64,000 nt of DNA from sequence record NC_070870.1; one strand, written 5' to 3'. Below, piece by piece: positions 10,607-42,013 of this stretch. Position 1 is the first letter of the stretch. Each line of letters begins with the position of its first letter. The position numbers were made by a program, and so were the translations under genes. The notes under the pieces are model-generated. The model saw nothing but the letters and a program-made list of their open reading frames with translations, did not search any database and was not told the DNA's origin. The stretch comes from Escherichia phage phi G17.

Positions 10607-10669
10607 TACACTGGCTTACTGTAGAGTAGGCTTCCTATATACGATATAAGTTTGAACAGGAAACATGCT

Positions 10670-16600: not shown

Positions 16601-19600
16601 TATGACCAGCGTGAAGGTGCTACAGATGACCTGTTACGTGTAGGTGCTGAGCAGATTGAACGTAACCTGCGTAACATTGCTCTGGGTGTAGATATTCGCC
16701 ACAAAGTAATGAACCAGGTACAGACCACTGTTGACCAGATGGCTGCTGTAGGTGCTCCTTATGTGAACAACGGTAAAATCTCTCTGGAAGGTCTGACGGT
16801 AGACCAGCAAGTAGCTAAGCTGAACGAACTGTTTGATGCTGAATTAAACAAGCGTCGTGATGCAGTACGTGCTGCTAAAGCAGAACCAGTGAAAGAAGTA
16901 CCGGCAATGGAACAAGTTGGTCGTGTGCTTAAGTCAGGTGTACGTCTGCTGTCCAATACTGCCATTACTAAACTGGCTAAAGAGATGTCCCCAGAACAGC
17001 AAGCAGTATTGAAAGAAGTACAGAACTCCCTTGCTGCTAAAGACTACAAGGTTGTTTATGGTACTCCTGCTCAACTGGATGCTTATGCTATTGAGAAGAA
17101 CATTACTCGCCCAGCACCGGAAGATATTGAAGCTGCTGAAGCAGGTAATGCATACGGCTGGACTAACTTTGATGATAAGACTATCTACTTAGTTACCCCT
17201 TCCTTAGAGACTCTGGTTCATGAATTGGTACATGCTTCTACTTTTGAATCTGTACTGGCTCACTACGAGGGTACTCCTAATGAAGCAGTCCAGAATATTG
17301 AAGACTTGATGAACCAGTTCCGTGCTCTGGATGTTAAGGATGAATCCCCGGCAGTACGTGAAGCATATGCTGATGCACTCAATACCATTAACGGTCACTT
17401 GTCTAATGGTTTCATTGAGCCAGCAATGTCTAAAGCTGCTGCACTGAATGAGTACATGGCATGGGGCTTAACCAACCGTGAACTGATTGGTAAGCAGAAG
17501 AAGACCACTGCACTGAAAGCTATGGTTCAGTCTGTGTATGAAGCAATTAAGCGTCTGGTATTTGGTCGTAAGAAAGCACCTGTTAATGCAGATGATATGT
17601 TCTCTGGCTTACTGTTTAACTCATCTGTAGTTATGCGTGGACAGGCTCCTACTGCTGCTGTATCCAAGGACACTACCTTGTTCCATAGCAAAGCATATGG
17701 TGACAATACTCGTCTGGAAGAGTTAGGGCAGACCTTTGATAAGCTGATTACTAACTACATTGGTTCTGAACCAGTACAGCAAGTAATCCGTAAAGGTAAG
17801 TTTTCTGATGCAGTAGTGAATGCAACTAAAGTAACCCGTGATGTTCAGGCTCATGGCTTTACTATGAATATGCAGGAACAGCGACTGTTCACTAATATTG
17901 TTGCTGCTTTGGCTACTGAAGCTGCTATTAGTCCGGCTGCTCTTTCTCGTGCACAGGAATATTATGCACATGTTACTAAGAATCTGACTGTTGAAGCATT
18001 CATGACAGACCCGGATAGTACTAACCCTGCTGACCGTTATTATGCACAGCAGAAGTTCGATACCATCATGGGTGCTAATAATATTGAGTATGATGCACAG
18101 GGTCGTTCTTCCTTACTGCCTACCTTTGTGGCTCTGGCAATGGTAAGTGAAGATGTACGTAATGTACTGGCTGACATTCCTGTTATGAAAGCAGATAAGC
18201 AATCCGGTAATACCGTTGATGCAATGCTGACTAACATTGGTACTGCTGCAATGGCTAGCCTGAATGCTCGTGTAGCAGGTGACACTAAAGCTACTAACGT
18301 ACAGGAAGGTATGGATGCACTGGCTCAGACAATCATGCAGACTAGTCTTAATGCACAGTCATTCTATGATTCCATTGCTACCCCTAGTGGTAATGCTATC
18401 GACCGTGCTAACCAGTATCTGGTGGACTCTATTGATGTACTGTCCACCCGTGCTTTAGATGGTGCACGTGAGGTTGCAGCTAATACCAAGAATCCGTTGG
18501 TTAAGGGTGCTGCTCATGCTGCTCAACTGGTAGCTGCCATTGCTACAGAGAAGAATGGTGCAATCGTAGCTGAAGGTGTTATGGCTGCAATGAACCAGGG
18601 TAAAGCATGGCAACCTTTCCATGACCTGGTTAATGACTTAACCGGTCGTACTAAGAGCAATGCTTCTGTGTATGATTTAATTAAAGCAGTTCGTGCACAG
18701 GTACAGGCTGACCGTCAACAGTTCCGTGAACATCTGCCTACCACTATCGCATCTAAGTTCAGCCGTAAGCTGACCAATGATGAATGGAAAGCAATGCACA
18801 CTGGTATGGGTAAAACTGATTTGGCTGTTCTGCGTGACACTATGTCTCTGGCTGAAATCCGTGACTTGCTGACTGACCAGAAGATTGTTGACCGTGAAGT
18901 GAATAAGCTGGAAGCAGATTTGCAGAAGCAAGCTGGTCGTAACTGGCCCCTGATTAATCGTAAATCTAAGCAACTGGCTCAGTACATGATTAACGGTACA
19001 GTCGGTAATAACCTGCTGCGTAATGCTACTGCAATCTCCCGTATGCTGGGTGAACGTCAGGCTGCTCGCTCTACCGTAGATGTAGCTCAACTGGATAAAC
19101 TGATTACTCTGTATGCACTGGAAGCAATGAACAAGAAAGACCGTGAGATGTTATCTTCACTGGCTCAATCAGAAGTTGATGGAATGGACTTTGTTACTTC
19201 TTATCTGGTTGGTCAGCGTAAAGATGAAATGGCTAAAGCCAAATCTGATATGCGTGCAACCCTGAACCAGTACAAAGGGCATATCCCTAGCGAGAACAAA
19301 CAGGGTGTTAATCTGATTGTTGCTGAAGATAGTCAGTTTGCTGATTTGATTGAGAAGTCTTATGTACGTCTGGGTACTTATCAGGGTAGCTCTGCTAACC
19401 GTGGTCCGGCACGTAGCTACTACTTCGCACCAGTACAGGCACAGGCTCCATTCTCACAGGGTATCCTACAGAACGTTCGTAATACTGCTGGTGGTGTAGA
19501 CCTCGGCACAGGTTTTACGATGGGTTCAATGGTGGCTGGTCGTATTACTGACAAGCCTTCTGTAGACCGTATTACTAAAGCACTGGCTCGTGGTGAGCGT

Positions 19601-21022
19601 GGTAATGAACCACTGCTGCCTGTATATGATGACAAAGGTAATGTGGTTGCCTATGAGCAATCAATTGACCCTAACATGCTGAAGCACATTGAAGGCGAGA
19701 ATCACCTTGCCCGTGCAATCGGTGTATGGCGTGGTCGTCAGGTTGAAGAAGCTAAGGCACAGCGTTTCAACGATATGCTGATTGAGAACCTGCATAGCAT
19801 GTACGAGAACGACATTAAAATGTCTGCCTCTAATAAGTCCCAGTACGTGAACCTTCTTGGTTCTAAACTGGACCCAGTAACTGCTGATGCGCTTAAGCTG
19901 ATGAACAGTGAAACTCGTCAGAAAGCAGAGAGCCTGTTTGGTGAGGGCGAACTATGGGTACGTCGTGACATGCTGAATGATGCACTAGGTTATCGTGCAG
20001 CTTCAGTTGGTGATGCATGGTCTGGTAACTCTCGTTGGTCCCCGGAAACTCTGGATACCTTCAAGAAAGCTATGCTGGGTGTATTCGGCAACCGTGCTTA
20101 TAAGTACACAATGGGTGGAGAGAACCTGGTTCAGAACTTAGTTAAAGAAGCCAAGACTCTGATTGTAGTTAAGTCAGTAGTCGTACCTGCTGTTAACTTC
20201 TTGGCCAACCTTTACCAGATGGTTGCTCGTGGTGTACCGGTTAAGAACATTGCTAAGAGCATTCCACAGAAAACTGCTGAGATTAACCAGTACCTGAAAT
20301 CTCGTCTGCGTCAGGTGGATGCAGAAGCAGAATTACGTGCAGCTACTAACCCGAACCAGATTCGTAAACTTAAGGCTGAGATTCAGTCCATCTCTGATAG
20401 CCATAAGCGTATGAGTATCTGGCCCCTGTTGGAAGCTGGTGAGTTCTCTTCAATTGCAGATGCTGGTATTGGTCGTGATGACATCCTGATTACTGAGGGT
20501 AAGATTCACGAATACATGGATAAGCTGGCTGATAAGTTGCCCAAGTCTGTACGTACTGCTGGTCGTTATGCACTTATCACTAAGGATACTGCTCTGTTCC
20601 AGGGCATCCAGAAGACGGTTGAGTACTCTGACTTTATTGCTAAAGCAATCATCTACGATGAACTGACCCAGCGTAAAGGTAAGACTCGTGAAGAGGCACT
20701 TGGTCGTGTAACGGAAGAGTTCGTTAACTATGACCGTCTGCCTGGTCGCTTCCGTGGATATATGGAAAGCGTTGGTTTAATGTGGTTCTACAACTTTAAG
20801 ATTCGTTCTGCAAAAGTTGCAGTATCCATGATTCGTAATAACCCAGTACATGCAGCAATGGCTATGTTGGCTCCAACTCCTACCATGTTTGGTAATGTTG
20901 GCTTACCTATTCAGGACAACATCTTCAGCATTGCAGCACAGGGTAACATGGGTTACTCGTGGGGCTTTGGTCAGGGACTTCGTGCTCACAACCTTAACCC
21001 TTGGCTGAACTTAACTAACTAA
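10670..21022 (+). CDS. Virion-encapsidated RNA polymerase (vRNAP, about 3450 aa)
   Basis: Giant ORF; central region carries T7-like motifs: VEADGVTNGPINAM (motif A-like), RGIAKNPLTITIYGSGARG (motif B, R/K...YG), KIFDGMNIG (motif C-like); track start at 10652 is TTG, an ATG at 10670 has AGGA 9 nt upstream. Confidence 0.85.
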   Translation: MSTFDRLAGFADSITNAKQVDVSTATSQKQAAQGQSPFQLTPENAYNLQTGRVGNLGTGAFEPGSLQADFTQASPLEIINKYGNEQGLQILNSRANAADVVRQDLSKQRTNAEAFGDTLSGVGLGVANTLGGIAALGTGLVNDNAGASIASGMDWLNEGVRNLQSDALNANRNVVQNQNQITAQENQKLYEQDIKNGENDLVASLSRIGRDAFDSVANTLDNGMAASDGLSEGIGSLFTGGPLIRGVSALGKVMVGGDKAVKGITLAAELGSRPAQVALSAGRVAAPAVAIGGMEAGGAYQQTASEIMKMSHQELASKSPVYQQHIADGLSPDEARRQTASETGITAAGLTAPVAAATGPLVSRFELNPLKVGSLAGAGSNMLRETVEEGIQSGFGQFAQNTAIKENVDASRDTLKGVGEQAGLGALYGFGSAGVAQAPGATVKAAGAAVAPAVRTTLAGASLVGNALAKAASPITNILVQRGEEVAKRNEQASPVADATVSAAAQEATAQSEQAQATVQEAVDAMDITPEEKAAATQYASDLTQAMNFDPVEIEQANPAIREAVSGSTNRVEAIQKMADLVNTAEDPNVQMEAAIQMYDNIMSMDSFINRDPGALANLEQGSPAAAIVDQFSGLMANVQNTPKVLRAFRAIHSMIQEQAEAGKLKATEEANQAQANNIAMAADVSPEVLDADSVNMVLKHASEGKITLGNRQRAALQSAAAVLQGAREFDAKAEELGLRPQDIVSKQIKTDESRSNEGQYSALQHAKRIRSAYNSGNFDLASAYLNDFMQFAQHMQNKVGALNEHLVSGNADKNKSVHYQALSPSREWVRSRTGLGVNPYDTKSVKFAQQVGLEAKTVADIANALATAYPELNVSHVNVTSLDSRLDKPAAQVVKEFRQGGLDATQSQQTNEPVNQVDETPAPVQETAPTVQPKAEPVVENKPAPTKDTSSKTEEVSTTKSETVDATLTNEDTTQEVAETKTEMESVFPVYNNEKTPNQFLKAFTLPEEPKSRTIGSESPLTDVKQALSSAARFEAFTQKENNALTGDVMKRYQDLMDFGETLKTTLSDRLAKFLANKNVGKRFAEGTEANRWVGGKLLNIVEQDGDTFKFNNQLLETAVLAGLQWRLTATQNAAVKDMKDVAAITGVEASLLPEGILAEFENAQTLVEATNSLAQKIESYWGLNRNANAPLGYTKGIPMAMATEILSSLIEMGEVKESMLDVSEIDPASNKTVGLYTIEKLDDNDAINKFPTAIEEAVLLEPEEKMYFGDDIPSVAQTQLRNPAVKNTPEQKAALKAEQATEFRVHMPMVNFYEAMGRENILELMGAGTLNPELLNVNTAKSLEGKNLSVSMAYDSLFGVISQVREQEAGLDTPIHYGYNMTRVGRMQMLGKNNPQSSKLVREAILPTFSTIDLSNENSQTFSDFQLGLAQALGIKVHNMSREAMSEKLTKALEGNLKPAVDMMVEFDKSGHLPTDAVDILKTSLGGDKSFVALMALMEYARYLNSDDRANFNTPLYVEADGVTNGPINAMVLMTGGKFTPDWIKNTAKGGLFFDKAGKTMNEHRSQDDSVDLYEASTNGLQQALNELRTTYRNNVPVMNQMNHLQKIMDLFIKDFNLNEDGTLDLKRGIAKNPLTITIYGSGARGIAGKMVSAITDTIYERFSDVLQARAADPSISPAMAMFGKEAASEADAQAMLDTFLTSMEALTGNVPVMRKGELSIQQAEGALTGKLDPQKFTVSGNALKNLQENMLHLFVEPMRTGIQNTVGEGLMHSTENLQKATQIQSLVLQDMFQQAVQAKLAEKENDPTWKKGDFLTQKELNEIQESLSPLAPMIETGSQTFYIAGSENTDVANQVLATNLDDRMRVPMSIYAPSQAGVAGIPFMTIGTGDGMMMQTLSTMKGAPKNTLKIFDGMNIGINDITDASRKANEAVYTSWQGNPIKNVYDSYAKFMKNVDFSKLSDETKQAIAKSALEYDQREGATDDLLRVGAEQIERNLRNIALGVDIRHKVMNQVQTTVDQMAAVGAPYVNNGKISLEGLTVDQQVAKLNELFDAELNKRRDAVRAAKAEPVKEVPAMEQVGRVLKSGVRLLSNTAITKLAKEMSPEQQAVLKEVQNSLAAKDYKVVYGTPAQLDAYAIEKNITRPAPEDIEAAEAGNAYGWTNFDDKTIYLVTPSLETLVHELVHASTFESVLAHYEGTPNEAVQNIEDLMNQFRALDVKDESPAVREAYADALNTINGHLSNGFIEPAMSKAAALNEYMAWGLTNRELIGKQKKTTALKAMVQSVYEAIKRLVFGRKKAPVNADDMFSGLLFNSSVVMRGQAPTAAVSKDTTLFHSKAYGDNTRLEELGQTFDKLITNYIGSEPVQQVIRKGKFSDAVVNATKVTRDVQAHGFTMNMQEQRLFTNIVAALATEAAISPAALSRAQEYYAHVTKNLTVEAFMTDPDSTNPADRYYAQQKFDTIMGANNIEYDAQGRSSLLPTFVALAMVSEDVRNVLADIPVMKADKQSGNTVDAMLTNIGTAAMASLNARVAGDTKATNVQEGMDALAQTIMQTSLNAQSFYDSIATPSGNAIDRANQYLVDSIDVLSTRALDGAREVAANTKNPLVKGAAHAAQLVAAIATEKNGAIVAEGVMAAMNQGKAWQPFHDLVNDLTGRTKSNASVYDLIKAVRAQVQADRQQFREHLPTTIASKFSRKLTNDEWKAMHTGMGKTDLAVLRDTMSLAEIRDLLTDQKIVDREVNKLEADLQKQAGRNWPLINRKSKQLAQYMINGTVGNNLLRNATAISRMLGERQAARSTVDVAQLDKLITLYALEAMNKKDREMLSSLAQSEVDGMDFVTSYLVGQRKDEMAKAKSDMRATLNQYKGHIPSENKQGVNLIVAEDSQFADLIEKSYVRLGTYQGSSANRGPARSYYFAPVQAQAPFSQGILQNVRNTAGGVDLGTGFTMGSMVAGRITDKPSVDRITKALARGERGNEPLLPVYDDKGNVVAYEQSIDPNMLKHIEGENHLARAIGVWRGRQVEEAKAQRFNDMLIENLHSMYENDIKMSASNKSQYVNLLGSKLDPVTADALKLMNSETRQKAESLFGEGELWVRRDMLNDALGYRAASVGDAWSGNSRWSPETLDTFKKAMLGVFGNRAYKYTMGGENLVQNLVKEAKTLIVVKSVVVPAVNFLANLYQMVARGVPVKNIAKSIPQKTAEINQYLKSRLRQVDAEAELRAATNPNQIRKLKAEIQSISDSHKRMSIWPLLEAGEFSSIADAGIGRDDILITEGKIHEYMDKLADKLPKSVRTAGRYALITKDTALFQGIQKTVEYSDFIAKAIIYDELTQRKGKTREEALGRVTEEFVNYDRLPGRFRGYMESVGLMWFYNFKIRSAKVAVSMIRNNPVHAAMAMLAPTPTMFGNVGLPIQDNIFSIAAQGNMGYSWGFGQGLRAHNLNPWLNLTN

Positions 21023-21072: not shown

Positions 21073-21276
21073 TCATCTTTCATTAGGAAGTTTTCCTGTT
21101 TCGATAATACTTCTCAGAGTTTCCTCTGTAGGGAACCACAGAAATGAGAAGTAGAGTTTCTTAGCCACGTAACGAGTTACTCCCAGCTTCTCTGCGATTT
21201 CATCGAATGAATATGTACGGACGGTATTGTTGAGAATGGCTTCACGAACAACAGAGGTAATAGATACTTGTGTCAT
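21073..21276 (-). CDS. Small putative HTH DNA-binding protein (67 aa)
   Basis: ATG at 21276 with AGGAAA upstream; helix-turn-helix-like segment FDEIAEKLGVTRYVAKK. Confidence 0.45.
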   Translation of the reverse strand: MTQVSITSVVREAILNNTVRTYSFDEIAEKLGVTRYVAKKLYFSFLWFPTEETLRSIIETGKLPNER

Positions 21277-21300
21277 AATAGTTTCCTACAGATATGAGAA

Positions 21301-21330
21301 AGCCCTCACTAGGAGGGCTTGTTTTGTTTT
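21301..21330. promoter_or_regulatory. Hairpin AGCCCTC-actag-GAGGGCT followed by GTTTTGTTTT (terminator-like, strand ambiguous)
   Basis: 7-bp stem; lies about 25 nt upstream of minus-strand gene start 21276; shares stem/loop core with hairpin at 43732. Confidence 0.35.
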
Positions 21331-21400
21331 GGCTTCTAGAGCCTTACCACATGTCGGGTAGTTCAGTACCTTTCGGTAAAAACTACCTTACACCTGTTTG

Positions 21401-21793
21401 TTAAATTGTGCAACCACCACCGTCACATGTGTTGTTTTCTGCAAAGGAAGCCAGTGCCTTAGCAGTCTCCTCTTTCTCATGCAGTGCCTGACGTAGCAGG
21501 TAACCTTCTAATTCCCAAATCTTATTGAATGCATTTTCATATGCATAACGACGACCTACCCACTCATCGTAGATAGCTGGGTCAACACAGGCAGATACGC
21601 CTTCAACTTTGAAGCCATTTTCCAGGATGATAGTGCAATAGGTTACTAGGCTCAGATTAGCCAAATCATCTTCCGGGATTGCAGAAGGGTTAGCGAATCC
21701 AGACTTCACTGCATCAGCACCATTGAAATAGTAGACGCTTTTAATTTTAGCTTCGATTGATTCTTTACTTACTGTTGCCATTATTAGCCTCAT
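21401..21793 (-). CDS. Hypothetical protein (130 aa)
   Basis: ORF, minus strand, downstream of terminator 21950..21976. Confidence 0.45.
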   Translation of the reverse strand: MRLIMATVSKESIEAKIKSVYYFNGADAVKSGFANPSAIPEDDLANLSLVTYCTIILENGFKVEGVSACVDPAIYDEWVGRRYAYENAFNKIWELEGYLLRQALHEKEETAKALASFAENNTCDGGGCTI

Positions 21794-21976: not shown

Positions 21977-22135
21977 TTAGTAGCTTTTAATAGATAGCTG
22001 TATTTGAGCATTATAGTCTGCTCATACTCACACTCTTCTGTCGAAGAATATGTTTACAATATCTAGAGTGCCGGACTGTCTTACCGGCATTGTCTTTAGA
22101 GTGCTAAGCAATCAGGACTATGTTCTCTATTAATG

Positions 22136-22211
22136 GGTGCCCACTACTGGATTTGAACCAGTGACTTTCCGATTATTAGTCGGTTGCTTTCCCCGTCTAA
22201 GCTAAGTGGAC
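22136..22211 (-). tRNA. tRNA gene (minus strand), apparent anticodon AAT (Ile-like?), CCA not fully encoded
   Basis: By-eye cloverleaf: acceptor GTCCACT/AGTGGGC (one G-T pair), D-stem GCTT/AAGC, anticodon stem CCGA/TCGG with loop CTAATAA, T-arm ACTGG-TTCAAAT-CCAGT, discriminator A. Confidence 0.6.
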
Positions 22212-23260
22212 ATAATAGGGTGAGTCATGCCAGGCTCTAACTGGCTCCTTCTTCGCAATCCTTACATACCCCTACATAATTATTGCGTTAAGCTTTTTTG
22301 TTTAAGTTTAAGTGAAGGTGTTCTTGCTGACTCATAATACTTTCAATTCAGAGTAGCACTCACACAGGATTGTGCCTTTGAATACCGGGAAGTATAAACG
22401 AGTGCTACTTTGAATTGGTTCCCCGTTTCTAATACACGGACGGGGACACTCCATGGTCGTTTGATAATCAGGACGACTCACTCCTGACTGAGGTTACGCT
22501 GTTAGGCGACCATCAGATACGCTTCTTCGTTTGCATTTATGTTATTGGTTCGTTTCTAAAAAACCGCATAATCGCTACGAAAACTATCGGGGAGTGCACT
22601 AGCTCTGGGCCACGCTCGTGGACATCGACCTTCCTTCCACAGCTAATCAACTAATACACTCCCCTGTTAGGAAGCTGCCAGGGATTCCACCTGGCTCCAT
22701 CTGTTTTTAAAGTCACTCAGATATCGTCTGGACTTCCCATTGCCGTGGGATGTTGATAGAAATGAGAGGTTCTATCGGGGAGTACACTTACTCGACTGGT
22801 TAAACTATATCTATCCAGCTCCCCAGCAAATGTACTCCCCGATAGTCCATAATAGGAGGGAGGGGACGAATCCTCCCTTTATACCCTATGTTGCATGTAA
22901 GATCTAACAATTCGATGCTGTAGATAGCGATACTATCCGACATTAAACCCAGCCCCTGGGGGCTTGTGTGATTATAATGCTCAACATTGAGCGGTTAGTT
23001 GATAAGGGATCTGAAGCCTTATCCCAAAGATAATAACCTTTGGGATATAGCCTAAGATTCAGAAATGGCCCCTATATGGAGAGGCCATTGATTAACCCGA
23101 ATGTTGCTTTACATTTGCTGTGATAACCAGTTCTTAAAATAGTCTGTCTGACGGATGGGGAGCCACCCCTAGCGTCAGTGCCATACGGCAAAGATTAAGT
23201 TAAGAAAGGTTATGATAGGAGTTCCTATCTCAAAGGATTCTGACAGAACCCTTCACGATA
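22212..23260. other. ORF-free, highly structured region with repeated motif CTATCGGGGAGT(G/A)CACT and multiple long inverted repeats
   Basis: No ORF of 60 aa or more on either strand for about 1.05 kb; 15-bp perfect inverted repeat 22772..22786 / 22831..22845; paralogous copy at 22584..22600 with partner CACTCCCC at 22657..22664; many further stem-loops. Confidence 0.5.
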
Positions 23261-23431: not shown

Positions 23432-23662
23432 ATTAACCTCGGTTGAACCAATGGACTGGGGAGAGTATTCCAATCCACTGGTTCGGTTGTTGTTATTCTG
23501 GCGGCTTGTCACCACCGTGTTTACCACTGCATTTCCACAGGATAATGACAGTGATGATAAAAGCTATGTATGGAGCCGACACGTCTATAATCCTGACTAG
23601 TAGTAACATCAGGACTATAAACACTACCACACCTAGCAGCAGCTTCTGAGCCACCTACCAGA

Positions 23663-24163
23663 TTAACTACGTTTCAGGCCAGCGAACAGTGAAGGTTTCG
23701 CAGCAGGTTTCTCTGCTGGTTCTTCAACCTTAACTTCTTCCTGCACAGCTTCTTCGTGTGCATCTGGTTCAGTTGTTGCTTCTTCTTCTTCAGCAACTTC
23801 TTCTTCAGGTTCCGGCGTAGAACTCTCGTTCTGACCACCAACTGAGGTCGGGGCATCTACTTTCAGTTCCAGAGGTGCTCCCTCCTTTACCGATTCGGTA
23901 ACAACTTGTTCACCAACCTCAGGTTCTGGGGTTGAGTCAACAGGACGATGTTTGGCTTCTTGTGGATTCTTGCGAGGACGGCGGGTCTTCTTCTCTACCA
24001 CGGGTGGAGTGTCATCATCATGACCGACCTCTTCATTGATGCCAACGGAGGCAGTACCATCTGAATTCACCAGGATACTAATGTCCCCGGCAAGATTAAC
24101 TTGTTCATTTACGTAAGCTTCAATAGCAGCTTCTACTTCGGACTGATTCAGGACGATTTGCAT
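23663..24163 (-). CDS. Hypothetical protein with about 40-aa N-terminal domain and long acidic P/E-rich tail (166 aa)
   Basis: ATG at 24163; C-terminal two thirds are low-complexity E/P/K/V-rich. Confidence 0.5.
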   Translation of the reverse strand: MQIVLNQSEVEAAIEAYVNEQVNLAGDISILVNSDGTASVGINEEVGHDDDTPPVVEKKTRRPRKNPQEAKHRPVDSTPEPEVGEQVVTESVKEGAPLELKVDAPTSVGGQNESSTPEPEEEVAEEEEATTEPDAHEEAVQEEVKVEEPAEKPAAKPSLFAGLKRS

Positions 24164-24164
24164 A

Positions 24165-24719
24165 TTATGCCTTTATTAATTTAATGAGGTTCTGGAAAGC
24201 TGGGAGATTTACACCAGCGTGAATTGCACCGATTGCATCAGCTAAGTGCTCATTCTTATTTAGAAGTTTGCCTTTCTTATCTGTGAGCCAGTTGGCTTCT
24301 GGATAGATGGCATGAGCAGCACGAATCATCGTGTCTTTGGATGCAGTTTTATCTCCGACCAGTGCAAGTTTGTTTTCAATTGGGGATACTTCAAAGATTG
24401 GACAACCCAATGCACGGAATGCACCGATTAATCCTACGCATACGCCATAGGATTTCATACCGTTAGCAGACTGAGAGCCTACTGGTACTTCTACGAATAC
24501 TGCTTTAGCAGACCGTAACCATTCCTCACAACCAAGAAACAAATCATAAGAGGCTTGTATATCTTTGGAGTTGGTTCGAACTTGCTTGTTGTGGTCAACT
24601 TCAGTTTGAACCAGTTTAAGTTCGACTTGCTCGAAGACGCCGGACTCAATGTCCAGCATCCCACGAGCTAATCCCCAATTGCGGAGACTAATGTCTGCAC
24701 CGACAATTGGGATTTTCAT
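24165..24719 (-). CDS. RuvC-like Holliday-junction resolvase (184 aa)
   Basis: N-terminal IVGADISLRNWGLA and C-terminal EHLADAIGAIHAG resemble RuvC catalytic motifs. Confidence 0.55.
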   Translation of the reverse strand: MKIPIVGADISLRNWGLARGMLDIESGVFEQVELKLVQTEVDHNKQVRTNSKDIQASYDLFLGCEEWLRSAKAVFVEVPVGSQSANGMKSYGVCVGLIGAFRALGCPIFEVSPIENKLALVGDKTASKDTMIRAAHAIYPEANWLTDKKGKLLNKNEHLADAIGAIHAGVNLPAFQNLIKLIKA

Positions 24720-25516
24720 TAACGTTTACCGAACAGAGATTTACCACCTGCCGGAGCAGAACTTGTACTAGCACCTGGTTTAGGAGGCAAGCCACCTTTA
24801 CCATTACCACCAGTAGAACCCTTGGTCTTATCGCGGGTTTTACCTTTGTTCTTTTCCAGCCATGCTGCATAGAATACAGCCAGTTCTGGGGTCAGTTCTT
24901 TCTCAGCCTTCTCTGCTTCCTGAGCCTCGACGACTGTGACCAGCAGTTCCGGGTGAAACACTTTCTGAATCTCGTTTACTTCACGAGTTTCACCAGAGTC
25001 AACGTAACCGTTGTCACCCTTAACCTGCTTAGCTTCCAGAACCTTTTCCAGAGCGAAGGTAACAGTCTGACCAACCAGATCAACTGGAACCATGACGGAC
25101 TTGTTGGTTTCTGCTTTTAGGTCAAAGTCATAGACTTTAACAATCTTCTCTTCGAAGTCTGCATCCGGTAGTTCATTACCAGTAGCCATCAACATCATGT
25201 CGTTAATGACAGTGTAACCAGGCAGGAAGTATTCTTTACCGTTCTTCTCATAAGTCGGCTTATTGCCTTTAGCATTACCAGAAGTGAAGTACACCTGAGC
25301 ACGGAACTCACCGGCACTATTGCCAGCAGAACCTTTCAGGTCTTCAATGATTAACTGCATCCAGTCTGCACCAGAGTCTGCTTTACCTACGTAAGCCACT
25401 TTGACAGTACCGGTGTAGATATCAGATTCTTTAGCGCCGAAGCCACCACCACCAAGGGAGTCTTTAGCAGCTTCAACGTTTTGGGTTTTTTCTTTCAAGT
25501 TACCGAACAGTGACAT
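24719..25516 (-). CDS. Putative single-stranded DNA-binding protein (265 aa)
   Basis: Size and position match N4-type SSB; Gly-rich N-terminus and Gly/Pro/Lys-rich C-terminal tail; AGGAAA upstream. Confidence 0.5.
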   Translation of the reverse strand: MSLFGNLKEKTQNVEAAKDSLGGGGFGAKESDIYTGTVKVAYVGKADSGADWMQLIIEDLKGSAGNSAGEFRAQVYFTSGNAKGNKPTYEKNGKEYFLPGYTVINDMMLMATGNELPDADFEEKIVKVYDFDLKAETNKSVMVPVDLVGQTVTFALEKVLEAKQVKGDNGYVDSGETREVNEIQKVFHPELLVTVVEAQEAEKAEKELTPELAVFYAAWLEKNKGKTRDKTKGSTGGNGKGGLPPKPGASTSSAPAGGKSLFGKR

Positions 25517-25557: not shown

Positions 25558-26310
25558 TTAAGCGTAGTATTCAGCCAGATGGTCTAAAAGTTTTTGAGCG
25601 TCATTATCAATGTACGTCTCGGATTTATCGAACATACCCATCGGTGAACGTAAGCGTTTACCAACAGACTTCTTGGTTGGGCGAGTCTGGAATACATGCT
25701 TATAACCTAAGTCACGCTCTTCTTCAGTAATTTCAAGCATCTTGTTGCCATACTTCTCCAGTTCCTTGATGTCTACACGCTCAGCGTAAACCACTGTAGA
25801 GAAATAAGCCTCAAGGCCATTGTTCTTCAGGGAGCCTTTGACCGGGATGAATGTTTTCATCACACCGGCAGCTTCATCGAGTTCATCTTTGGCATGGGCA
25901 GTAATGATTACTGGCTTACCAAACTTAACGACTTTCTGTTGCAGCAGTACTTTAAAGAACTGTGCAAAGTCTCCCCAGGCTTTCTGGGTATTAGCAGATG
26001 GTAATACATACTGGGATTCCAGCATGTCCATCATGAAGGTAGCAGAGTCGATAATGATGCCATCAACATCGTCTGCCATTTCACCACCTGGAGATGCAAC
26101 ATCGAATGCTTCCCAAATCTGATATGGGTCTTCAATGTTGTAGGTGTTGAACTTATTACGGAAAGGCAGTCGCTTACCTGCTTCTGTATTCAGATACAGC
26201 CAGCGTTCCTGGTTCCTGATATTACGCAGTGATGCTGATTTACCACTCGCTGAGAATCCTGCAATCAGGATTAGCTGAGTGTTCATATCGTTGGAGATTT
26301 CTTCGGACAT
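25558..26310 (-). CDS. P-loop NTPase (250 aa), possibly RecA/Sak4-like
   Basis: Walker A-like LILIAGFSASGKSAS near N-terminus. Confidence 0.45.
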   Translation of the reverse strand: MSEEISNDMNTQLILIAGFSASGKSASLRNIRNQERWLYLNTEAGKRLPFRNKFNTYNIEDPYQIWEAFDVASPGGEMADDVDGIIIDSATFMMDMLESQYVLPSANTQKAWGDFAQFFKVLLQQKVVKFGKPVIITAHAKDELDEAAGVMKTFIPVKGSLKNNGLEAYFSTVVYAERVDIKELEKYGNKMLEITEEERDLGYKHVFQTRPTKKSVGKRLRSPMGMFDKSETYIDNDAQKLLDHLAEYYA

Positions 26311-26366: not shown

Positions 26367-28520
26367 TTATTTGCCAGCGAAGCGTTTAGCCACGGTGACC
26401 ATTACGGTTGCATTCAATTCATCATCTGGTAATGGATTAGCCAGTTTCTTATTGAACGAGTAGACGGCTTGCTGTACTTGAGCAAAGTCCCAACCACTGT
26501 CTACTAATGCCAGTGCGTACTTAATCATTTGATTATTACGATTACCGGAGGCAATACGACCAGCGAACCAACGCTCCAGATTGTCTAACGACTGTACTTC
26601 CTTCATCTGGTTCTGGAACTGTTCGTTCTTACTGGTACGAGGAATAAAGTCACGTACATCCAACAGATTCGCATCAAGGTTGTAATGATAGGAACCAGTT
26701 TCACAGGACATCCACTTCTTGGCTCGTTGGTTAGCAGACTCATCCGTTTCGAATGGTAGCCAAGCCATAACGTTATTCATGAACTCTTTGTATTCCACAG
26801 TGTCGAGGTGCAACTCATAGTTCATTGGGATAATCAGACGGAAGCGGTTCTCTTCGTCGGAATGACGCTTAGTGGTATAGGTCATGAACTTATATTCCTT
26901 CATCAGTTCATGGCACGTATGCAGTGGTACTCCACCATCACAGTCAATAACAATCATGTTAAATCCTGGAATCACGTTCTCTTCAGAACGATGTCCATTC
27001 TTCATGTGATGGTTTACCCAGTGCATACCGGGAGCTTGGGTTAATACATGTAGCTGGTCAAACGGTACACGTTCACCAACATAGTCATAAGCAAAGCTAT
27101 CACTATAAGCCACCAGCATCTCATTGGTGTCAGTCTCTTTCAGAGTCTCACCACGGAAGAACTCAATACCTTCATTGAATGTCTTCTTAATAATGATGTG
27201 CTGTTTGTAACCCCATGCTGTAGCAAGAGTCATCATCTCATTACGAGCTGCATTGCCACTCTTATAGAACGGCAGTGACTCCAGTAAGTCAGCATGAGTC
27301 ACTTCTTTGCCTACGGAAGCAATGTACTTAGCCAGCTTAACATAGGCTTTCTCACGATTAAGGATAGTCTGGAAAGCTGCCCCGGATTCTTCTACGAGCA
27401 GGATTGCTTGTTTAAGATGAGCCATCTCAATGAATGAACTCTGGTCAACAAACGCCAGTGCACCTGCCAGCTTAAGAGCTTTGAAGTAACGGTGGGAGAT
27501 TTCAGCTTTACGAATTTCTTCGTGGTCTGCCATAGCTTCTGCTTGTTTCTCACAATCAATTTTGTAAGTAATCAGAGCAATACCCACTGCATCTTCCACA
27601 ATCATCTTAAAGCCAAACAGGTTTGGGTCAGCCAGACTATGAAAGTGGTTAGCCCACTTGCCAAGAGACTGAACGTTATCCTGCTTAATCAGGTTACGGT
27701 AGATTTCTTCCGGGGTCAGCGTTGCATGTGCTCGCTTGTCTAAGTGCCCAATGGCAAACAGACAACGACGTGCATACCCCGTATCAAGGAAGTCATAGAA
27801 CTGGTCTTCAGTCTGACCACCATCCAGCAGCTTACTCGGAGTACCGAATAGCAGCAGGTTAGCGGGAGTCTTACCATCCAGTTCTTCACCACGTACACTT
27901 TCAGCAGTGTTCTTGGTTAACTTCTGTTTTACTTTCCCTTGGTCATACAACTCAAGGAACAGGTTAAGTACTTCAACGTTGGCAATGAGGTTGGAACCAA
28001 TCTCATCAATCTGTAAGTTGATGCCACCACAACCAGCCATAAGCAGTTTGTGACGAAGTTGCTTTACAGCAGGTGCTGTACCAGAGTCGAACGTGAACGG
28101 GAATGCCCCAGCACGCTTATACTCTGCTTCAACTTTATCGAACTCTTCTTGCTGGTCAGTACCCTGACGTGCAGAACGTTCGTTAGCAATCTTCCACAGA
28201 CGGTCATTTGCAATGACGGGCATGGTGTCTTCCATAAAACGTTTACGGAAGCCAGTCATGAATCCGTCTTCAATGATATTTACCGAGTGACCTTTACCGA
28301 AACCAGATGTAGCCAACGCCATAGCGTAGATGTTTACTGGCAGGTCACCACGGTCTTTAGTTACGATGGTTGCACCCATGCAGGATGCCATTTTAGCCAA
28401 GAAGTAGGCCACTTCGACACGGAAAAATCCCCGGTCGTTATTCTGGGTTTTATTGCAGAGCACATCTACGATTTCTTCAATCGCCGGATGGTGCACTACT
28501 CCGGTAAGGTCAATACTCAT
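26367..28520 (-). CDS. Large replication-associated protein, possibly primase (about 717 aa from ATG at 28520; track start 28577 is TTG)
   Basis: ATG at 28520 overlaps upstream stop (ATGA); location between nuclease and SSB block; no catalytic motif confidently recognised. Confidence 0.35.
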   Translation of the reverse strand: MSIDLTGVVHHPAIEEIVDVLCNKTQNNDRGFFRVEVAYFLAKMASCMGATIVTKDRGDLPVNIYAMALATSGFGKGHSVNIIEDGFMTGFRKRFMEDTMPVIANDRLWKIANERSARQGTDQQEEFDKVEAEYKRAGAFPFTFDSGTAPAVKQLRHKLLMAGCGGINLQIDEIGSNLIANVEVLNLFLELYDQGKVKQKLTKNTAESVRGEELDGKTPANLLLFGTPSKLLDGGQTEDQFYDFLDTGYARRCLFAIGHLDKRAHATLTPEEIYRNLIKQDNVQSLGKWANHFHSLADPNLFGFKMIVEDAVGIALITYKIDCEKQAEAMADHEEIRKAEISHRYFKALKLAGALAFVDQSSFIEMAHLKQAILLVEESGAAFQTILNREKAYVKLAKYIASVGKEVTHADLLESLPFYKSGNAARNEMMTLATAWGYKQHIIIKKTFNEGIEFFRGETLKETDTNEMLVAYSDSFAYDYVGERVPFDQLHVLTQAPGMHWVNHHMKNGHRSEENVIPGFNMIVIDCDGGVPLHTCHELMKEYKFMTYTTKRHSDEENRFRLIIPMNYELHLDTVEYKEFMNNVMAWLPFETDESANQRAKKWMSCETGSYHYNLDANLLDVRDFIPRTSKNEQFQNQMKEVQSLDNLERWFAGRIASGNRNNQMIKYALALVDSGWDFAQVQQAVYSFNKKLANPLPDDELNATVMVTVAKRFAGK

Positions 28521-29569
28521 GATGGAAAATATCTCTCTCTTTGTTTGCAAATGGACGCGACAGGGCAATATAAACAACGTTTAACCTGCCCCTCCACGAC
28601 TTTGATAGCACCCTTGCCACCTTTTTCAGCCATGAAGATACGAGCAGATGCCATATCATCAAAGTTTTTGGTACTTCTGGCTCCGGGCATATCTACCTTA
28701 GAAGCATCAGAGAAGTATTTAAACTGTGGCTCTGTTCGCCACAACTCCTCGTCAGTACATTCAGGGATTTCCTCTTCAGGTGCATCCCAGTACTTTTCGA
28801 TTAAGTGAATCTTCTCTTCCACCCAACGTTCAGTCTTCTCAGCAGACAGCAACGGAATATCCTTATGCATAATACGATTAGCAGGATAGTTCGGATTGCT
28901 ATTAGCCATGTGTTTCATGAAGTCGGTGAAGATGTAGTTAATACGGATTACATCCTCGGTAATGATGTCGTTGTGAATCCAACGGTACAAGCTGCCTTGC
29001 ATCTTATGTTCATCATCACGGGAACCAGCAACCCAGGAATAGGTTGAGGTAGACTTGAAGTCTTGTAACAGACCTTCCGTTACGATGTCGAACTTACCAC
29101 CGATGGTCCAACCCTTAACTACCTTGGTTCCACGTTGTTCAATGTAGATTGGGATAAGGTCTGGGTTAGCAGCAAAGTCTGCTTTGGTTGGGTTAATGAC
29201 TACTGCATCAATTACTCGCTGAGGATAACCCAGCTTCTTCAATGCAGTCTTATGACCTAGCTTCCAGGCTTTCTCGATAGAGTCATGTAAGCCAGTTCCC
29301 ATTGATGTGGAGACGAAATCCATAACATCAATAGACTGGTCACTAAAATCTACACGATGTTTCATGACTATTTGCTTAAGTGGTTTAAGCAATGTAGTAG
29401 CAGACAGATACTTAGGATTGTCTACGTAATCATACTCATCATGTAATAGCCATACAGCCAGAGCCAGCGAGACATCATGATTGTTGGTTATCTTCATTAG
29501 TAAGTAATCCTGTAACGATAAATATCTGCCCACCTGATAGATTGGAAATGTAGTTCTCCTGGAAAGCAT
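28517..29569 (-). CDS. PD-(D/E)xK-type nuclease with C-terminal Cys cluster (Cas4/RecB-like exonuclease, 350 aa)
   Basis: GKFDIV...LQDFKST nuclease-like core; C-terminal CLYCPVASIC plus upstream Cys suggests a 4-Cys cluster. Confidence 0.5.
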   Translation of the reverse strand: MLSRRTTFPIYQVGRYLSLQDYLLMKITNNHDVSLALAVWLLHDEYDYVDNPKYLSATTLLKPLKQIVMKHRVDFSDQSIDVMDFVSTSMGTGLHDSIEKAWKLGHKTALKKLGYPQRVIDAVVINPTKADFAANPDLIPIYIEQRGTKVVKGWTIGGKFDIVTEGLLQDFKSTSTYSWVAGSRDDEHKMQGSLYRWIHNDIITEDVIRINYIFTDFMKHMANSNPNYPANRIMHKDIPLLSAEKTERWVEEKIHLIEKYWDAPEEEIPECTDEELWRTEPQFKYFSDASKVDMPGARSTKNFDDMASARIFMAEKGGKGAIKVVEGQVKRCLYCPVASICKQRERYFPS

Positions 29570-41046: not shown

Positions 41047-41179
41047 TTATTTACTCTCCAGTTTAAATGTTGCTTATAGGAAAAGACTTAATACAACTAC
41101 GGAAATACCTATGGCTGTACCGTATGTACCTAATAATTCATTAAGTAAGTAGGGTAGAGCCATGAAATAGTTGAATACT

Positions 41180-41720: not shown

Positions 41721-41729
41721 ACTATTTCC

Positions 41730-41954: not shown

Positions 41955-41980
41955 AAGTCCTCCTGGGGCAGTAATTGAAA

Positions 41981-42008: not shown

Positions 42009-42013
42009 TAGGT

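What the first reader, a model, noticed from the sequence alone, without database searches (positions are those of the whole stretch)
23663..24163. Protein with strongly acidic, proline-rich tail next to SSB and resolvase genes
About two thirds of this 166-aa protein is an E/P/V/K-rich low-complexity tail. Highly acidic phage proteins sometimes act as DNA mimics or as flexible interaction hubs. The position in the replication block suggests a role with SSB or the polymerase.
Basis: inference. Interest (0 to 1): 0.35.

Follow-up and report, generated by a model that had tools for sequence, protein, structure and literature searches.

The report
Disordered protein copying SSB's tail tip
This small phage gene makes a mostly disordered, acidic protein (the N4 gp47 / Bes2 family) whose last residues copy the docking tip of the phage's own single-stranded-DNA-binding protein, which suggests both dock on the same partner and gives a testable mechanism for a recently reported immune-evasion factor.

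Summary
Window 23663-24163 (-) encodes a 166-aa protein with net charge -24, the most acidic of the 82 ORFs of 100 aa or more. It is 100% identical to hypothetical protein gp20 of Escherichia phage phi G17 (Gamaleyavirus, an N4-like phage) and is tightly packed behind the SSB and RuvC-like genes.

It is the ortholog of N4 gp47. By profile comparison, synteny and architecture it is a distant homolog of Ab09 gp61, "Bes2". A June 2026 preprint showed Bes2 helps a Pseudomonas N4-like phage evade Thoeris and CBASS by an unknown mechanism.

The protein has four parts: a 45-aa folded N-terminal domain, a conserved acidic-then-basic segment, a variable disordered acidic spacer, and an invariant C-terminal tip, KPSLFAGLKRS.

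The new point is that this tip copies the tip of the neighbouring N4-type SSB (…GKSLFGKR). In 20 Schitoviridae lineages the two tips change together, for example SLFG/SLFG, SLFS/SLFS, DDPF/DDPF, DLF/DLF and DMFDD/GMFDD. No permutation out of 300,000 matched the observed agreement. Some lineages carry 2-5 copies of the motif, and some fuse the module to a RusA resolvase.

Best reading: a flexible adaptor or competitor that docks on whatever reads the SSB tip. That receptor is unresolved. The DNA-mimic idea is not supported.

The parts
23663..24163 (-). Whole ORF: 166 aa plus stop. Ortholog of N4 gp47; identical to phi G17 gp20; distant homolog of Ab09 gp61 (Bes2).
24029..24163 (-). N-terminal folded domain, aa 1-45 (helix 7-21, beta hairpin 28-32/38-42). 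It is acidic with no K/R. It is the only part that aligns across all Schitoviridae, including Bes2 and the RusA fusions.
   Evidence: AF2 pLDDT 83-91; hhalign 85-99%; no PDB fold match
23939..24019 (-). Conserved acidic-then-basic segment, aa 49-75: DDDTPPVVEKKTRRPRKNPQEAKHRPV. The RRPRK run is AT-hook-like. Possible nucleic-acid contact or second linear motif.
   Evidence: 0.93-0.94 identity across 132 homologs for residues 51-70; pLDDT 71-76; basic patches at the same place in CB1, DS-1410Ws-06, LUZ7 and Ab09
23699..23938 (-). Disordered acidic E/P/V/A/T-rich spacer, aa 76-155. Length varies between homologs. It contains one conserved island, GGQNESSTPEP (23807-23839).
   Evidence: pLDDT 40-56; identity 0.33-0.59 and gap fraction up to 0.48
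23666..23698 (-). C-terminal tip, aa 156-166: KPSLFAGLKRS. A short linear motif that copies the SSB tip, and also the SSB N-terminal motif SLFGNLK.
   Evidence: identical in 119 of 120 homologs; F160 invariant and S158 nearly invariant in the 18-sequence alignment; co-varies with the SSB tip in 20 phages
24722..24745 (-). C-terminal tip of the neighbouring N4-type SSB: GKSLFGKR. This is the motif that is copied.
   Evidence: L261 and F262 invariant and S260 nearly invariant in 52 diverse SSBs; SLF lies in the last 12 residues of 113 of 120 SSBs
25490..25516 (-). N-terminal motif of the same SSB: MSLFGNLKE. A third copy of the motif, and the closest in sequence to the gp47 tip SLFAGLK.
   Evidence: short helix at residues 5-10, pLDDT about 74
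24719..25516 (-). N4-type SSB (gp45 homolog)
   Evidence: phrog_743, 8.6e-89; AF2 core pLDDT 93-98 with weak OB-fold SSB matches
24165..24719 (-). RuvC-like Holliday-junction resolvase (N4 gp46 homolog; Bes1 counterpart). Closely packed with both SSB and the target, which suggests translational coupling.
   Evidence: phrog_159, 1.6e-41
25558..26310 (-). Sak4-like / AAA_24 ATPase (N4 gp44 homolog). Candidate reader of the SSB tip, by precedent only.
   Evidence: PF13479, 6.4e-11, and phrog_124, 8.4e-50; HK620 precedent in PMC5928155

Best explanation
The ORF is the Gamaleyavirus ortholog of N4 gp47 and a distant member of the family that includes Ab09 gp61 (Bes2). It is expressed with the SSB and the Holliday-junction resolvase.

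Its layout is a small folded N-terminal domain, a basic patch, a long disordered acidic spacer, and a C-terminal short linear motif that copies the tip of the phage's own SSB.

I propose that it works as a flexible adaptor or competitor. The tip docks on the same receptor that reads the SSB tip. The N-terminal domain and basic patch supply a second contact, either to DNA or to another copy of itself.

The receptor is most likely phage-encoded and co-evolving. My first candidate is the adjacent Sak4-like ATPase gp44. Alternatives are the SSB core itself or another replisome protein. Either way, the protein would join or modulate the SSB-centred recombination/replication machinery together with the resolvase. 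In the Pseudomonas relative, loss of the homolog together with the RuvC-like gene makes the phage sensitive to Thoeris and CBASS.

Shown: family membership, the anatomy, motif identity and co-variation, and the RusA fusions. Inferred: that the two tips share a receptor, which receptor it is, and the link to immune evasion in this phage.

Sub-confidences: member of the gp47/Bes2 family, about 0.9. The tip is a functional motif shared with SSB, about 0.8. The receptor is phage-encoded, about 0.5. The receptor is specifically gp44, about 0.25.
For: (1) Family. BLASTP to N4 gp47 gives E=9e-10 over the N-terminal 78 aa. The window protein and an N4-like gp47 hit the same PHROG, phrog_7641 (1.2e-54 and 8.3e-42). 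Profile-profile comparison with the Bes2 group gives probability 85-91.5%, P=6e-6 to 8.5e-7. It gives 97.6-99.1% to the N4 gp47 group, and that group matches Bes2 at 94.6-96.2%. Synteny is conserved across more than 10 genera: primase, Sak4-like, SSB, resolvase, then this gene.

(2) Tip conservation. KPSLFAGLKRS is identical in 119 of 120 homologs while the spacer varies.

(3) Tip sharing. Among 531 window ORFs of 30 aa or more, a terminal LF[AG]x0-2[KR] motif occurs only in this protein, at both ends of SSB, and in one antisense ORF that lies inside a larger gene on the opposite strand, so probably not a gene.

(4) Co-variation in 20 phages, including changes of chemistry. Pairs (SSB / gp47-like): pVa5 GGSLFG* / KQSLFG*; SP-058 PTKSLFAK* / PTKSLFARN*; Ab09/PA26 ASLFS* / GSLFS*; DS-1410Ws-06 KKKSSLFDD* / KKKSSIFDVD*; Tribble GDDPFTM* / EDDPFANFD*; CB1 SDLFL* / LDLFS*; PT15-A5 DDMFDDD* / DDGMFDD*. 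Mean matched score is 17.0 against 7.5 for mismatched pairs. No permutation out of 300,000 reached the observed value, even with the x-[LIMP]-F columns removed.

(5) Multivalency. There are 2-5 copies of the phage-specific motif in the gp47-like tails of EcP1, DS-1410Ws-06, Tribble and CB1.

(6) Gene fusions. The gp47 module is fused to RusA-like resolvases in rhizobial and roseobacter phages.

(7) Not recent gene conversion. The two tips share no extended nucleotide identity (longest shared run CTGTTCG) and their Ser codons differ.

(8) Precedent. In HK620 the last six residues of the SSB are needed for Sak4 to bind SSB-coated ssDNA (PMC5928155). N4 SSB's C-terminal residues are a protein-interaction determinant (PMC4496689).

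(9) Charge trend, weak and not corrected for phylogeny. Tip net charge anticorrelates with gp44 net charge (rho -0.52, p 0.018) and with SSB core net charge (rho -0.40, p 0.08).

(10) Phenotype of the homolog. Ab09 gp61/Bes2 alone rescues the deletion phage from Thoeris I, Thoeris II and CBASS II-A without binding the signal molecules (bioRxiv 10.64898/2026.06.04.730250).
Against: No binding was tested here, and none could be. The only published receptor for an N4 SSB C-terminus is the host RNAP beta' subunit, not a phage protein.

AF2 of full-length SSB does not dock the C-terminal tip on the core: the tail has pLDDT below 50, and only S260-F262 reach 50 or more.

The link to Bes2 rests on a domain of about 45 aa (probability 85-91%). 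Bes2 sits in a different PHROG, phrog_7564.

In Ab09 the deletion 41,096-42,899, as I reconstructed it, removes both the SSB tip and Bes2. The preprint reports that this phage 'generally replicated well'. So the tip is not essential for growth, at least in Litunavirus.

The co-variation test does not model phylogeny. Own-SSB is the single best match for only 6 of 20 gp47 tips, because many lineages share the same SLFG-type tip.
Confidence: 0.6

Rival explanations
1. The shared receptor is the C-terminus of the host RNA polymerase beta' subunit. The protein competes with, or assists, SSB in activating late transcription. It thereby sets the timing or level of late structural proteins, some of which trigger Thoeris and CBASS.
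For: [quoted passage not shown] LUZ7 late genes are also transcribed by host RNAP (PMC9163698). In the Bes2 preprint the Thoeris II trigger is a late protein, the side tail fibre with its chaperone, and Bes2 acts without touching the signal molecules.
Against: Tip chemistry switches from basic (KP8, KKSLFGKK) to acidic (Tribble, GDDPFTM) between phages of the same host genus, Klebsiella. This is hard to reconcile with one highly conserved host site. The Ab09 mutant that lacks both tips still grows well, so late transcription there cannot depend on the tip.
Confidence: 0.2
2. The receptor is the SSB core itself. The terminal SLF motifs mediate SSB-SSB cooperativity, as the N-terminal domain of T4 gp32 does. 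The protein uses the same motif to sit on, cap or bridge SSB-coated ssDNA.
For: SSB carries the motif at both ends, and the gp47 tip SLFAGLK is closest to the SSB N-terminal SLFGNLK. The SSB N-terminal helix is modelled at pLDDT about 74. SSB core net charge trends opposite to tip charge (rho -0.40, p 0.08).
Against: AF2 does not dock the C-terminal tip onto the core. The charge trend is weak and not corrected for phylogeny. The gp32 analogy comes from memory and was not tested.
Confidence: 0.15
3. The tip is a variant of the bacterial beta sliding-clamp binding motif. SSB and this protein both dock on host DnaN.
For: The core S-L-F / D-L-F / D-M-F equals positions 3-5 of the consensus QL[S/D]LF (consensus quoted in PMC11417375). 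The CB1 SSB tip GQSDLFL reads Q-x-D-L-F. The motif lies at the C-terminus after a disordered linker, as many clamp motifs do. Phage Mu uses the host clamp for late transcription (PMC12867686, listed).
Against: The first two consensus positions (Q, L) are absent from the window protein (A-K-P-S-L-F) and from most SSB tips. The DDPF tips do not fit the consensus. From memory, N4 gp8 inhibits the host clamp loader. Nothing was tested.
Confidence: 0.07
4. One reading: the acidic tail is a DNA mimic that sequesters DNA-binding proteins such as restriction enzymes, SSB or polymerase.
For: Net charge is -24, with a 41-residue stretch at net -16. All 18 family spacers are net negative.
Against: The acidic region is predicted disordered. 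It is the least conserved part in sequence and length, and its charge density varies about ten-fold across the family. Selection acts on the N-terminal domain, the basic patch and the basic/hydrophobic tip instead. No fold or sequence match to any known mimic was found.
Confidence: 0.05
5. The tip resemblance is coincidental, or reflects a shared non-binding role such as a degradation tag. The protein is merely a spacer-rich ORF of no specific function.
For: The motif is short (3-7 residues). Many lineages share the same SLFG form, so the number of independent changes is limited.
Against: No permutation out of 300,000 reached the observed matched-pair score, even with the core columns removed. 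There were parallel switches to four different chemistries. The tip is identical in 119 of 120 close homologs beside a variable spacer. The motif is repeated inside several tails. A degradation tag read by a host protease would not differ between two Klebsiella phages.
Confidence: 0.03

Closest known systems
Bes2 (gp61 of Pseudomonas phage Ab09, Litunavirus). 'Broad evasion of signaling 2', bioRxiv 10.64898/2026.06.04.730250, June 2026.
   Same: Same genomic slot, directly after the RuvC-like gene (Bes1 / N4 gp46-like) downstream of SSB. Same architecture: a small N-terminal domain, then a long low-confidence region. The N-terminal domains align at hhalign probability 85-91.5%. Bes2 also ends in its own SSB's tip (…GGSLFS against …PASLFS).
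   Different: Pairwise sequence similarity is undetectable, and the two fall in different PHROGs (phrog_7564 against phrog_7641). The Bes2 spacer is Ala-rich and only mildly acidic. Bes2 lacks the DDTPPVVE-KKTRRPRK segment. The immune-evasion phenotype has been shown only for the Pseudomonas protein. The preprint sections I read give no mechanism for Bes2 and do not mention an SSB-like tip.
Coliphage N4 gp47 (YP_950525), uncharacterised
   Same: Ortholog: BLASTP E=9e-10 over residues 1-78, same PHROG, same position after gp46. The N4-like phage SPSP's gp47 ends in KPSLFAGLKR.
   Different: In the N4 reference record the annotated gp47 ends …KKYRKKRLKNQYKPNLLCLQV. A 1-nt difference in an A-run shifts the frame, and the tip KPSLFAGLKR is encoded in the next frame. 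The N4 N-terminal domain has a longer hairpin (KATRGDDGATA).
C-terminal tips of single-stranded-DNA-binding proteins used as docking peptides. Examples: bacterial SSB DDDIPF; HK620 SSB NDYPPF read by Sak4; and the acidic tails of T7 gp2.5 and gp4, which both bind the T7 polymerase (the T7 case is from memory).
   Same: A folded core, a disordered linker and a short terminal peptide containing a Phe. A second protein of the same machinery carries a look-alike tail. In HK620 a Sak4-like ATPase is encoded next to the SSB (PMC5928155).
   Different: In this phage the tip is basic/hydrophobic (K-x-S-L-F-x-x-K-R), not acidic. The SSB belongs to the N4 type, with no Pfam family. The look-alike sits on a protein that has no enzymatic domain at all. 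No partner is known.
T4 sliding-clamp motif shared by gp43, gp33 and gp55, and the bacterial clamp-binding motif QL[S/D]LF
   Same: The principle is the same: several proteins carry one C-terminal hydrophobic peptide and compete for one hub, which couples replication to late transcription. The S-L-F core also matches.
   Different: N4-like phages encode no clamp. Consensus positions 1-2 are missing here. The T4 comparison is from memory and was not tested.
Phage DNA-mimic proteins (for example T7 Ocr, ArdA)
   Same: Small and very acidic.
   Different: Those proteins are rigid folds that imitate the phosphate backbone. This protein's acidic part is disordered and poorly conserved.

Membership tests
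N4 gp47 / Bes2 family (PHROGs 7641, 18842, 7564) | Sequence or profile similarity of the N-terminal domain | tested here: met
   phrog_7641, 1.2e-54. BLASTP to N4 gp47, 9e-10. hhalign 97.6-99.1% to the N4 group and 85-91.5% to the Bes2 group.
N4 gp47 / Bes2 family (PHROGs 7641, 18842, 7564) | Position directly downstream of the Holliday-junction resolvase gene, in the primase to virion-RNAP interval | tested here: met
   Window gene order. Same order in N4, KP8, JWDelta, Paxi, Frozen, LUZ7, Ab09 and others.
N4 gp47 / Bes2 family (PHROGs 7641, 18842, 7564) | Small folded N-terminal domain followed by a long low-confidence region | tested here: met
   AF2 pLDDT 83-91 for residues 1-45 and 40-65 beyond residue 80. 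The preprint describes the same pattern for Bes2.
N4 gp47 / Bes2 family (PHROGs 7641, 18842, 7564) | Protects the phage from Thoeris / CBASS signalling immunity | not testable with these tools
   Shown only for Ab09 gp61 in P. aeruginosa.
SSB-tip look-alike (shared docking peptide) | Motif at the extreme C-terminus after a disordered linker | tested here: met
   KPSLFAGLKRS occupies aa 156-166, preceded by a low-pLDDT spacer.
SSB-tip look-alike (shared docking peptide) | Resembles the tip of the cognate SSB and changes with it across lineages | tested here: met
   20 phage pairs. Mean matched score 17.0 against 7.5 for mismatched pairs; 0 of 300,000 permutations reached the observed value.
SSB-tip look-alike (shared docking peptide) | Binds the same partner as the SSB tip | not testable with these tools
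   No multimer prediction or binding assay was available.
DNA-mimic proteins | Rigid fold displaying acidic residues in a DNA-like pattern | tested here: not met
   The acidic region is predicted disordered. No fold match in PDB or BFVD apart from its own family.
DNA-mimic proteins | Conserved high negative charge density | tested here: inconclusive
   All 18 spacers are net negative, but the range is -3.5 to -33 per 100 aa.
Bacterial beta-clamp binding motif QL[S/D]LF | Q at position 1 and a hydrophobic residue at position 2, ahead of [S/D]-L-F | tested here: not met
   The window tip is A-K-P-S-L-F. Most SSB tips have K/R/Q/P/T at these positions. Consensus from PMC11417375.
AT-hook | Core R-G-R-P flanked by basic residues | tested here: not met
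   The window has K-K-T-R-R-P-R-K, with no G-R-P core. Only DS-1410Ws-06 has GGRPRG. The window segment is therefore AT-hook-like at best.
   No Pfam, NCBIfam, PDB-sequence or PDB-fold match; the PHROG matches are families of unknown function.

The most novel reading that the evidence does not exclude
gp47/Bes2 proteins are decoys or adaptors built around a copy of the phage's own SSB docking tip, present in several copies in some lineages. The control could also extend to how SSB switches on late genes. This may be how they keep CBASS and Thoeris from being triggered. If so, it would be a form of anti-defence that works by self-mimicry of a short linear motif rather than by binding the immune signal or the immune protein.
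Probability: 0.35. Interest if true: 0.8.

Novelty: new member of a known kind. Interest (0 to 1): 0.55.

Why it matters
N4 gp47 has had no function since the N4 genome was annotated. Its Pseudomonas relative Bes2 was recently shown to protect phages from several nucleotide-signalling defence systems "by a novel mode", with no mechanistic lead.

The tip shared and co-varying with SSB gives such a lead: an 11-residue peptide to mutate, swap between phages or use as bait. It also ties Bes2 to Bes1 (the resolvase) through gene fusions.

It further suggests that N4-type SSBs work as hubs through a terminal SLF peptide, as bacterial SSBs do through DDDIPF. N4-like phages are being used therapeutically, so knowing how they avoid CBASS and Thoeris has practical value.

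Tried and rejected
- **Family and structure databases.** Pfam, NCBIfam and PDB sequence searches of the target returned nothing. Foldseek against PDB gave no hit below E=1; against BFVD it found only family members.
- **Single-sequence search.** phmmer against 1.84 billion representatives found only 14 hits, all close family members, plus one proline-rich repeat protein (P0134, 4e-4) that I treated as a composition artefact. It did not reach the wider family; profile comparison and synteny were needed.
- **Locus retrieval.** The search for related loci with the SSB alignment failed because no conserved stretch was available. I fetched annotated records one by one instead.
- **SSB structure input.** I redid it with database hits. 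It did not show the tip docked on the core, so the self-binding model remains undecided.
- **RusA in fusions.** Pfam did not detect RusA in the fusion proteins; PHROGs did.
- **Specificity positions.** I searched gp44 and the SSB core for charge-reversal columns specific to acidic-tip phages. Only 1-2 columns turned up in each, too few to name a receptor.
- **Primary literature.** Choi et al. 1995 on N4SSB mutants is not held. The statement about the SSB C-terminus therefore rests on the 2015 review.
- **Rejected leads.** A gp47 mentioned in the Bes preprint is a tail-fibre chaperone under Ab09 numbering, not N4 gp47. The antisense ORF 31761-31949, which ends in SLFGK, lies inside a larger gene on the other strand. 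The alternative-frame K-rich ORF 23674-23856 looks like a frame-shifted reading of the acidic region.
Full report
**What is there**

The window comes from a G7C-like N4-like phage (Gamaleyavirus, Schitoviridae). The 3456-aa ORF at 10652-21022 (+) is the virion RNA polymerase. Megablast of 21000-29000 matches many Gamaleyavirus genomes at 93-95%.

The flagged ORF, 23663-24163 (-), is 100% identical to hypothetical protein gp20 of Escherichia phage phi G17. On the minus strand the gene order is:
- primase, 26367-28577
- Sak4-like/AAA_24 ATPase, 25558-26310
- N4-type SSB, 24719-25516
- RuvC-like resolvase, 24165-24719
- the target, 23663-24163
- a 53-aa membrane ORF, 23493-23654

SSB and the resolvase overlap by 1 nt. 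The resolvase and the target are 1 nt apart. No convincing promoter or terminator lies between them.

**Checking the observation**

There are 39 D/E against 15 K/R, giving net charge -24 and pI 4.3, and 15 prolines. Residues 46-166 are 53% E+P+V+K. It is the most acidic of the 82 ORFs of 100 aa or more in the window.

AlphaFold2 with an 18-sequence alignment folds only residues 1-45 with confidence (pLDDT 83-91; one helix and a hairpin). The remainder is low confidence. The gene is clearly real: 721 homologs were found, and the 120 listed align over the full length of the query.

The tail is not uniform. Across 132 homologs the segment DDDTPPVVEKKTRRPRKNPQEAKHRPV is 93-94% conserved. The spacer drops to 33-59% identity, with up to 48% gaps. 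The last 16 residues are 95-96% conserved. The final KPSLFAGLKRS is identical in 119 of 120 sequences, although total length ranges from 134 to 169 aa.

**Which family**

Pfam, NCBIfam, PDB sequence search and PDB fold search gave nothing. The PHROG match is phrog_7641, of unknown function.

Annotated relatives show the protein is the counterpart of N4 gp47. BLASTP against N4 gp47 gives E=9e-10 over the first 78 residues.

A full-text search turned up a June 2026 preprint, bioRxiv 10.64898/2026.06.04.730250. In the Pseudomonas N4-like phage Ab09, gp60 (RuvC-like, N4 gp46-like) and gp61 are named Bes1 and Bes2. [quoted passage not shown] Neither binds or cleaves cGAMP or His-ADPR. [quoted passage not shown]

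Ab09 ORF61 occupies the same slot as the target, directly after the RuvC-like gene. Profile-profile comparison of the N-terminal domains gives these probabilities:
- window family against the Bes2 group: 85-91.5% (P 6e-6 to 8.5e-7)
- window family against the N4 gp47 group: 97.6-99.1%
- N4 gp47 group against the Bes2 group: 94.6-96.2%

I therefore file the protein in the gp47/Bes2 family. The immune-evasion phenotype is known only for the Pseudomonas member.

**The new point: the tip is the SSB's tip**

The SSB next door ends in …GGKSLFGKR and begins with MSLFGNLKEK. The target ends in …KPSLFAGLKRS.

Among 531 window ORFs of 30 aa or more, a terminal LF[AG]x0-2[KR] motif occurs only in these two proteins and in one antisense ORF. 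That antisense ORF lies inside a larger gene on the opposite strand and is probably not a gene.

In 52 diverse N4-type SSBs, L261 and F262 are invariant and S260 is nearly so. 113 of 120 SSBs have SLF within the last 12 residues.

I collected the SSB and the gp47-like protein from 20 phages. They cover Enquatrovirinae, Rothmandenesvirinae, Migulavirinae, Humphriesvirinae, Erskinevirinae, Pontosvirinae, Fuhrmanvirinae, Rhodovirinae and several unassigned genera. Three of them were metagenomic contigs that I chose in advance because their SSB tips were unusual.

In every case the gp47-like protein ends in, or close to, the tip of its own SSB. The two change together, even where the chemistry changes:

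| Phage | SSB tip | gp47-like tip |
|---|---|---|
| pVa5 | GGSLFG* | KQSLFG* |
| pYD6-A | ATSLFG* | KQSLFG* |
| SP-058 | PTKSLFAK* | PTKSLFARN* |
| Ab09/PA26 | ASLFS* | GSLFS* |
| LUZ7 | SSLFGD* | AGLFGG* |
| DS-1410Ws-06 | KKKSSLFDD* | KKKSSIFDVD* |
| Tribble | GDDPFTM* | EDDPFANFD* |
| CB1 | QSDLFL* | VLDLFS* |
| PT15-A5 | DDMFDDD* | DDGMFDD* |

A BLOSUM62 score over nine positions anchored on the Phe averages 17.0 for cognate pairs and 7.5 for non-cognate pairs. None of 300,000 permutations reached the observed sum. The result holds when the x-[LIMP]-F columns are removed.

Two limits apply to this test. It does not model phylogeny. Own-SSB is the single best match for only 6 of 20 gp47 tips, because many lineages share the same SLFG form.

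The two tips in the window share no extended nucleotide identity and use different Ser codons, so recent gene conversion is unlikely.

**Further anatomy from relatives**

- Several gp47-like tails carry 2-5 copies of the phage-specific motif: EcP1 has 2, DS-1410Ws-06 has 2, Tribble has 5 and CB1 has 4-5.
- In rhizobial and roseobacter phages the gp47 module is fused to the C-terminus of a RusA-like resolvase. In the RHph_X2_28B protein, residues 3-176 match RusA PHROGs, and residues 127-233 match phrog_18842 and phrog_7641, the window protein's own families. BFVD also returns such a fusion.
- The tip is the same SLF type in phages with a RuvC-like resolvase and in phages with a RusA-like one. 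The resolvase is therefore a functional partner, but probably not the tip's receptor.
- A basic patch follows the N-terminal domain in most lineages.
- All 18 spacers examined are net negative, but charge density ranges from -3.5 to -33 per 100 residues. Moderate acidity is a family trait; strong acidity is not.

**What reads the tip?**

This could not be tested here. The evidence bearing on each candidate is as follows.

- *Sak4-like gp44.* In HK620 the last six residues of the phage SSB are required for the neighbouring Sak4 ATPase to bind SSB-coated ssDNA (PMC5928155). N4-like phages encode a Sak4-like/AAA_24 protein directly upstream of SSB.
- *Against a conserved host site.* Two Klebsiella phages, KP8 and Tribble, have tips of opposite charge. 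This argues against a single conserved host site and for a co-evolving phage receptor, or for a change of target.
- *Charge trends.* Tip charge anticorrelates weakly with gp44 charge (rho -0.52, p 0.018) and with SSB-core charge (rho -0.40, p 0.08). These figures are not corrected for phylogeny.
- *SSB core.* AF2 of full-length SSB gives a confident core and a weakly ordered N-terminal helix, but an undocked C-terminal tail.
- *Beta sliding clamp.* The S-L-F / D-L-F / D-M-F core equals positions 3-5 of the clamp-binding consensus QL[S/D]LF (PMC11417375). The first two consensus positions are missing.
- *Essentiality.* Taking the preprint's deletion coordinates (41,096-42,899), the Ab09 mutant SSB loses its SLFS tip and reads out of frame through the remnant of gp61. 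That phage 'generally replicated well' without immunity. The tip is therefore dispensable for growth in that system. This counts against an essential role in late transcription or replication there.

**Verdict**

The DNA-mimic interpretation is not supported. The 'works with SSB' interpretation is supported in a sharper form.

The protein is a new, divergent member of the gp47/Bes2 family. The receptor, and the connection to immune evasion in this coliphage, are inferences.

I found no description of the shared tip in the papers I could search, but that search is limited to open-access text.

Noticed in passing
L023:3179-3700 (N4 reference genome NC_008720, gp47) compared with L002:4852-5295: The annotated N4 gp47 ends …EEEKKYRKKRLKNQYKPNLLCLQV*. 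Relative to the N4-like phage SPSP, the N4 record lacks one A in an A-run (GAAGAAG-AAAAG). The conserved ending …KEVQEEEAKEPVQAKPSLFAGLKR* is encoded in the next frame. This is either a sequencing error or a real frameshift in the laboratory strain. In either case the reference protein hides the SSB-like tip.
   Followed up: partly
window 25490-25516 (-); SSB N-termini: N4-type SSBs carry the same motif at their N-terminus (MSLFGNLKEK here; M-S-x-L-F-G-N-L-K in most of 120 SSBs). The gp47 tip SLFAGLK/SLFANLK is closer to this N-terminal copy than to the C-terminal one.
   Followed up: partly
window 23493-23654 (-); L018:5257-5460, L019:5324-5479, L020:5156-5341, L013:5285-5458, L015:5485-5664, L012:4729-4956: A small ORF (51-75 aa), strongly hydrophobic and apparently membrane-spanning, follows the gp47-like gene in many Schitoviridae lineages. 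The one in the window matches phrog_19025, and more weakly a PHROG annotated as a membrane protein. Its function is unknown.
   Followed up: no
gp47-like proteins in L005, L009, L010, L003, L013 and L018: A second recurring internal motif, [DE]-x-[AP]-P-F-[DEN], appears in several lineages: DEAPFETE, DEAPFEGD, AEAPFNPG, EDPPFDPD, NDAPFDID, KEPPFDTD. It resembles the bacterial SSB tip DDDIPF. It is absent from the window protein.
   Followed up: no
L013:3739-4062 (Tribble) and L015:3790-4125 (CB1): In the two acidic-tip phages, a 'Mu Gam-like' gene is inserted between the SSB and the RuvC-like gene. The Tribble protein contains …NLPFTMEEDP…, which repeats the PFTM of its SSB tip (…GDDPFTM*). 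The CB1 protein has …KLPFQL….
   Followed up: no
P0047, P0122, P0128 and P0131: Some close homologs have a clearly different N-terminal domain (MQITYSPSEVETIVSNHILD…) joined to an almost unchanged basic patch, spacer and tip. This suggests modular exchange within the gene.
   Followed up: no
window 22134-22212 (-): ARAGORN reports a tRNA-Ile with anticodon AAT. This is an unusual anticodon for bacteria and phages. Related records annotate the gene as tRNA-Ile or tRNA-Xle.
   Followed up: no
window 21073-21793 (-) compared with L022:182-1169 (Shigella phage Moonfish): The interval between the target and the virion RNAP gene is the 'anti-signalling hot spot' of the Bes preprint. The window has an N4 gp49/Sf6 gp66-family ORF (21401-21793; PF13876, 2.8e-26) and a 67-aa ORF. 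The close relative Moonfish additionally carries a Tad2-like gene there.
   Followed up: partly
window 1436-2656 (+): A 406-aa ORF contains the most acidic 60-residue stretch in the window (net charge -22). I did not examine it.
   Followed up: no
L017 (Ab09) record positions 41096-42899: The Cas3-generated deletion used in the Bes preprint removes the last 16 codons of the SSB, including its SLFS tip. It leaves the SSB reading out of frame through the end of gp61. The 'Δgp57-61' phenotype therefore also reflects a tip-less SSB.
   Followed up: yes
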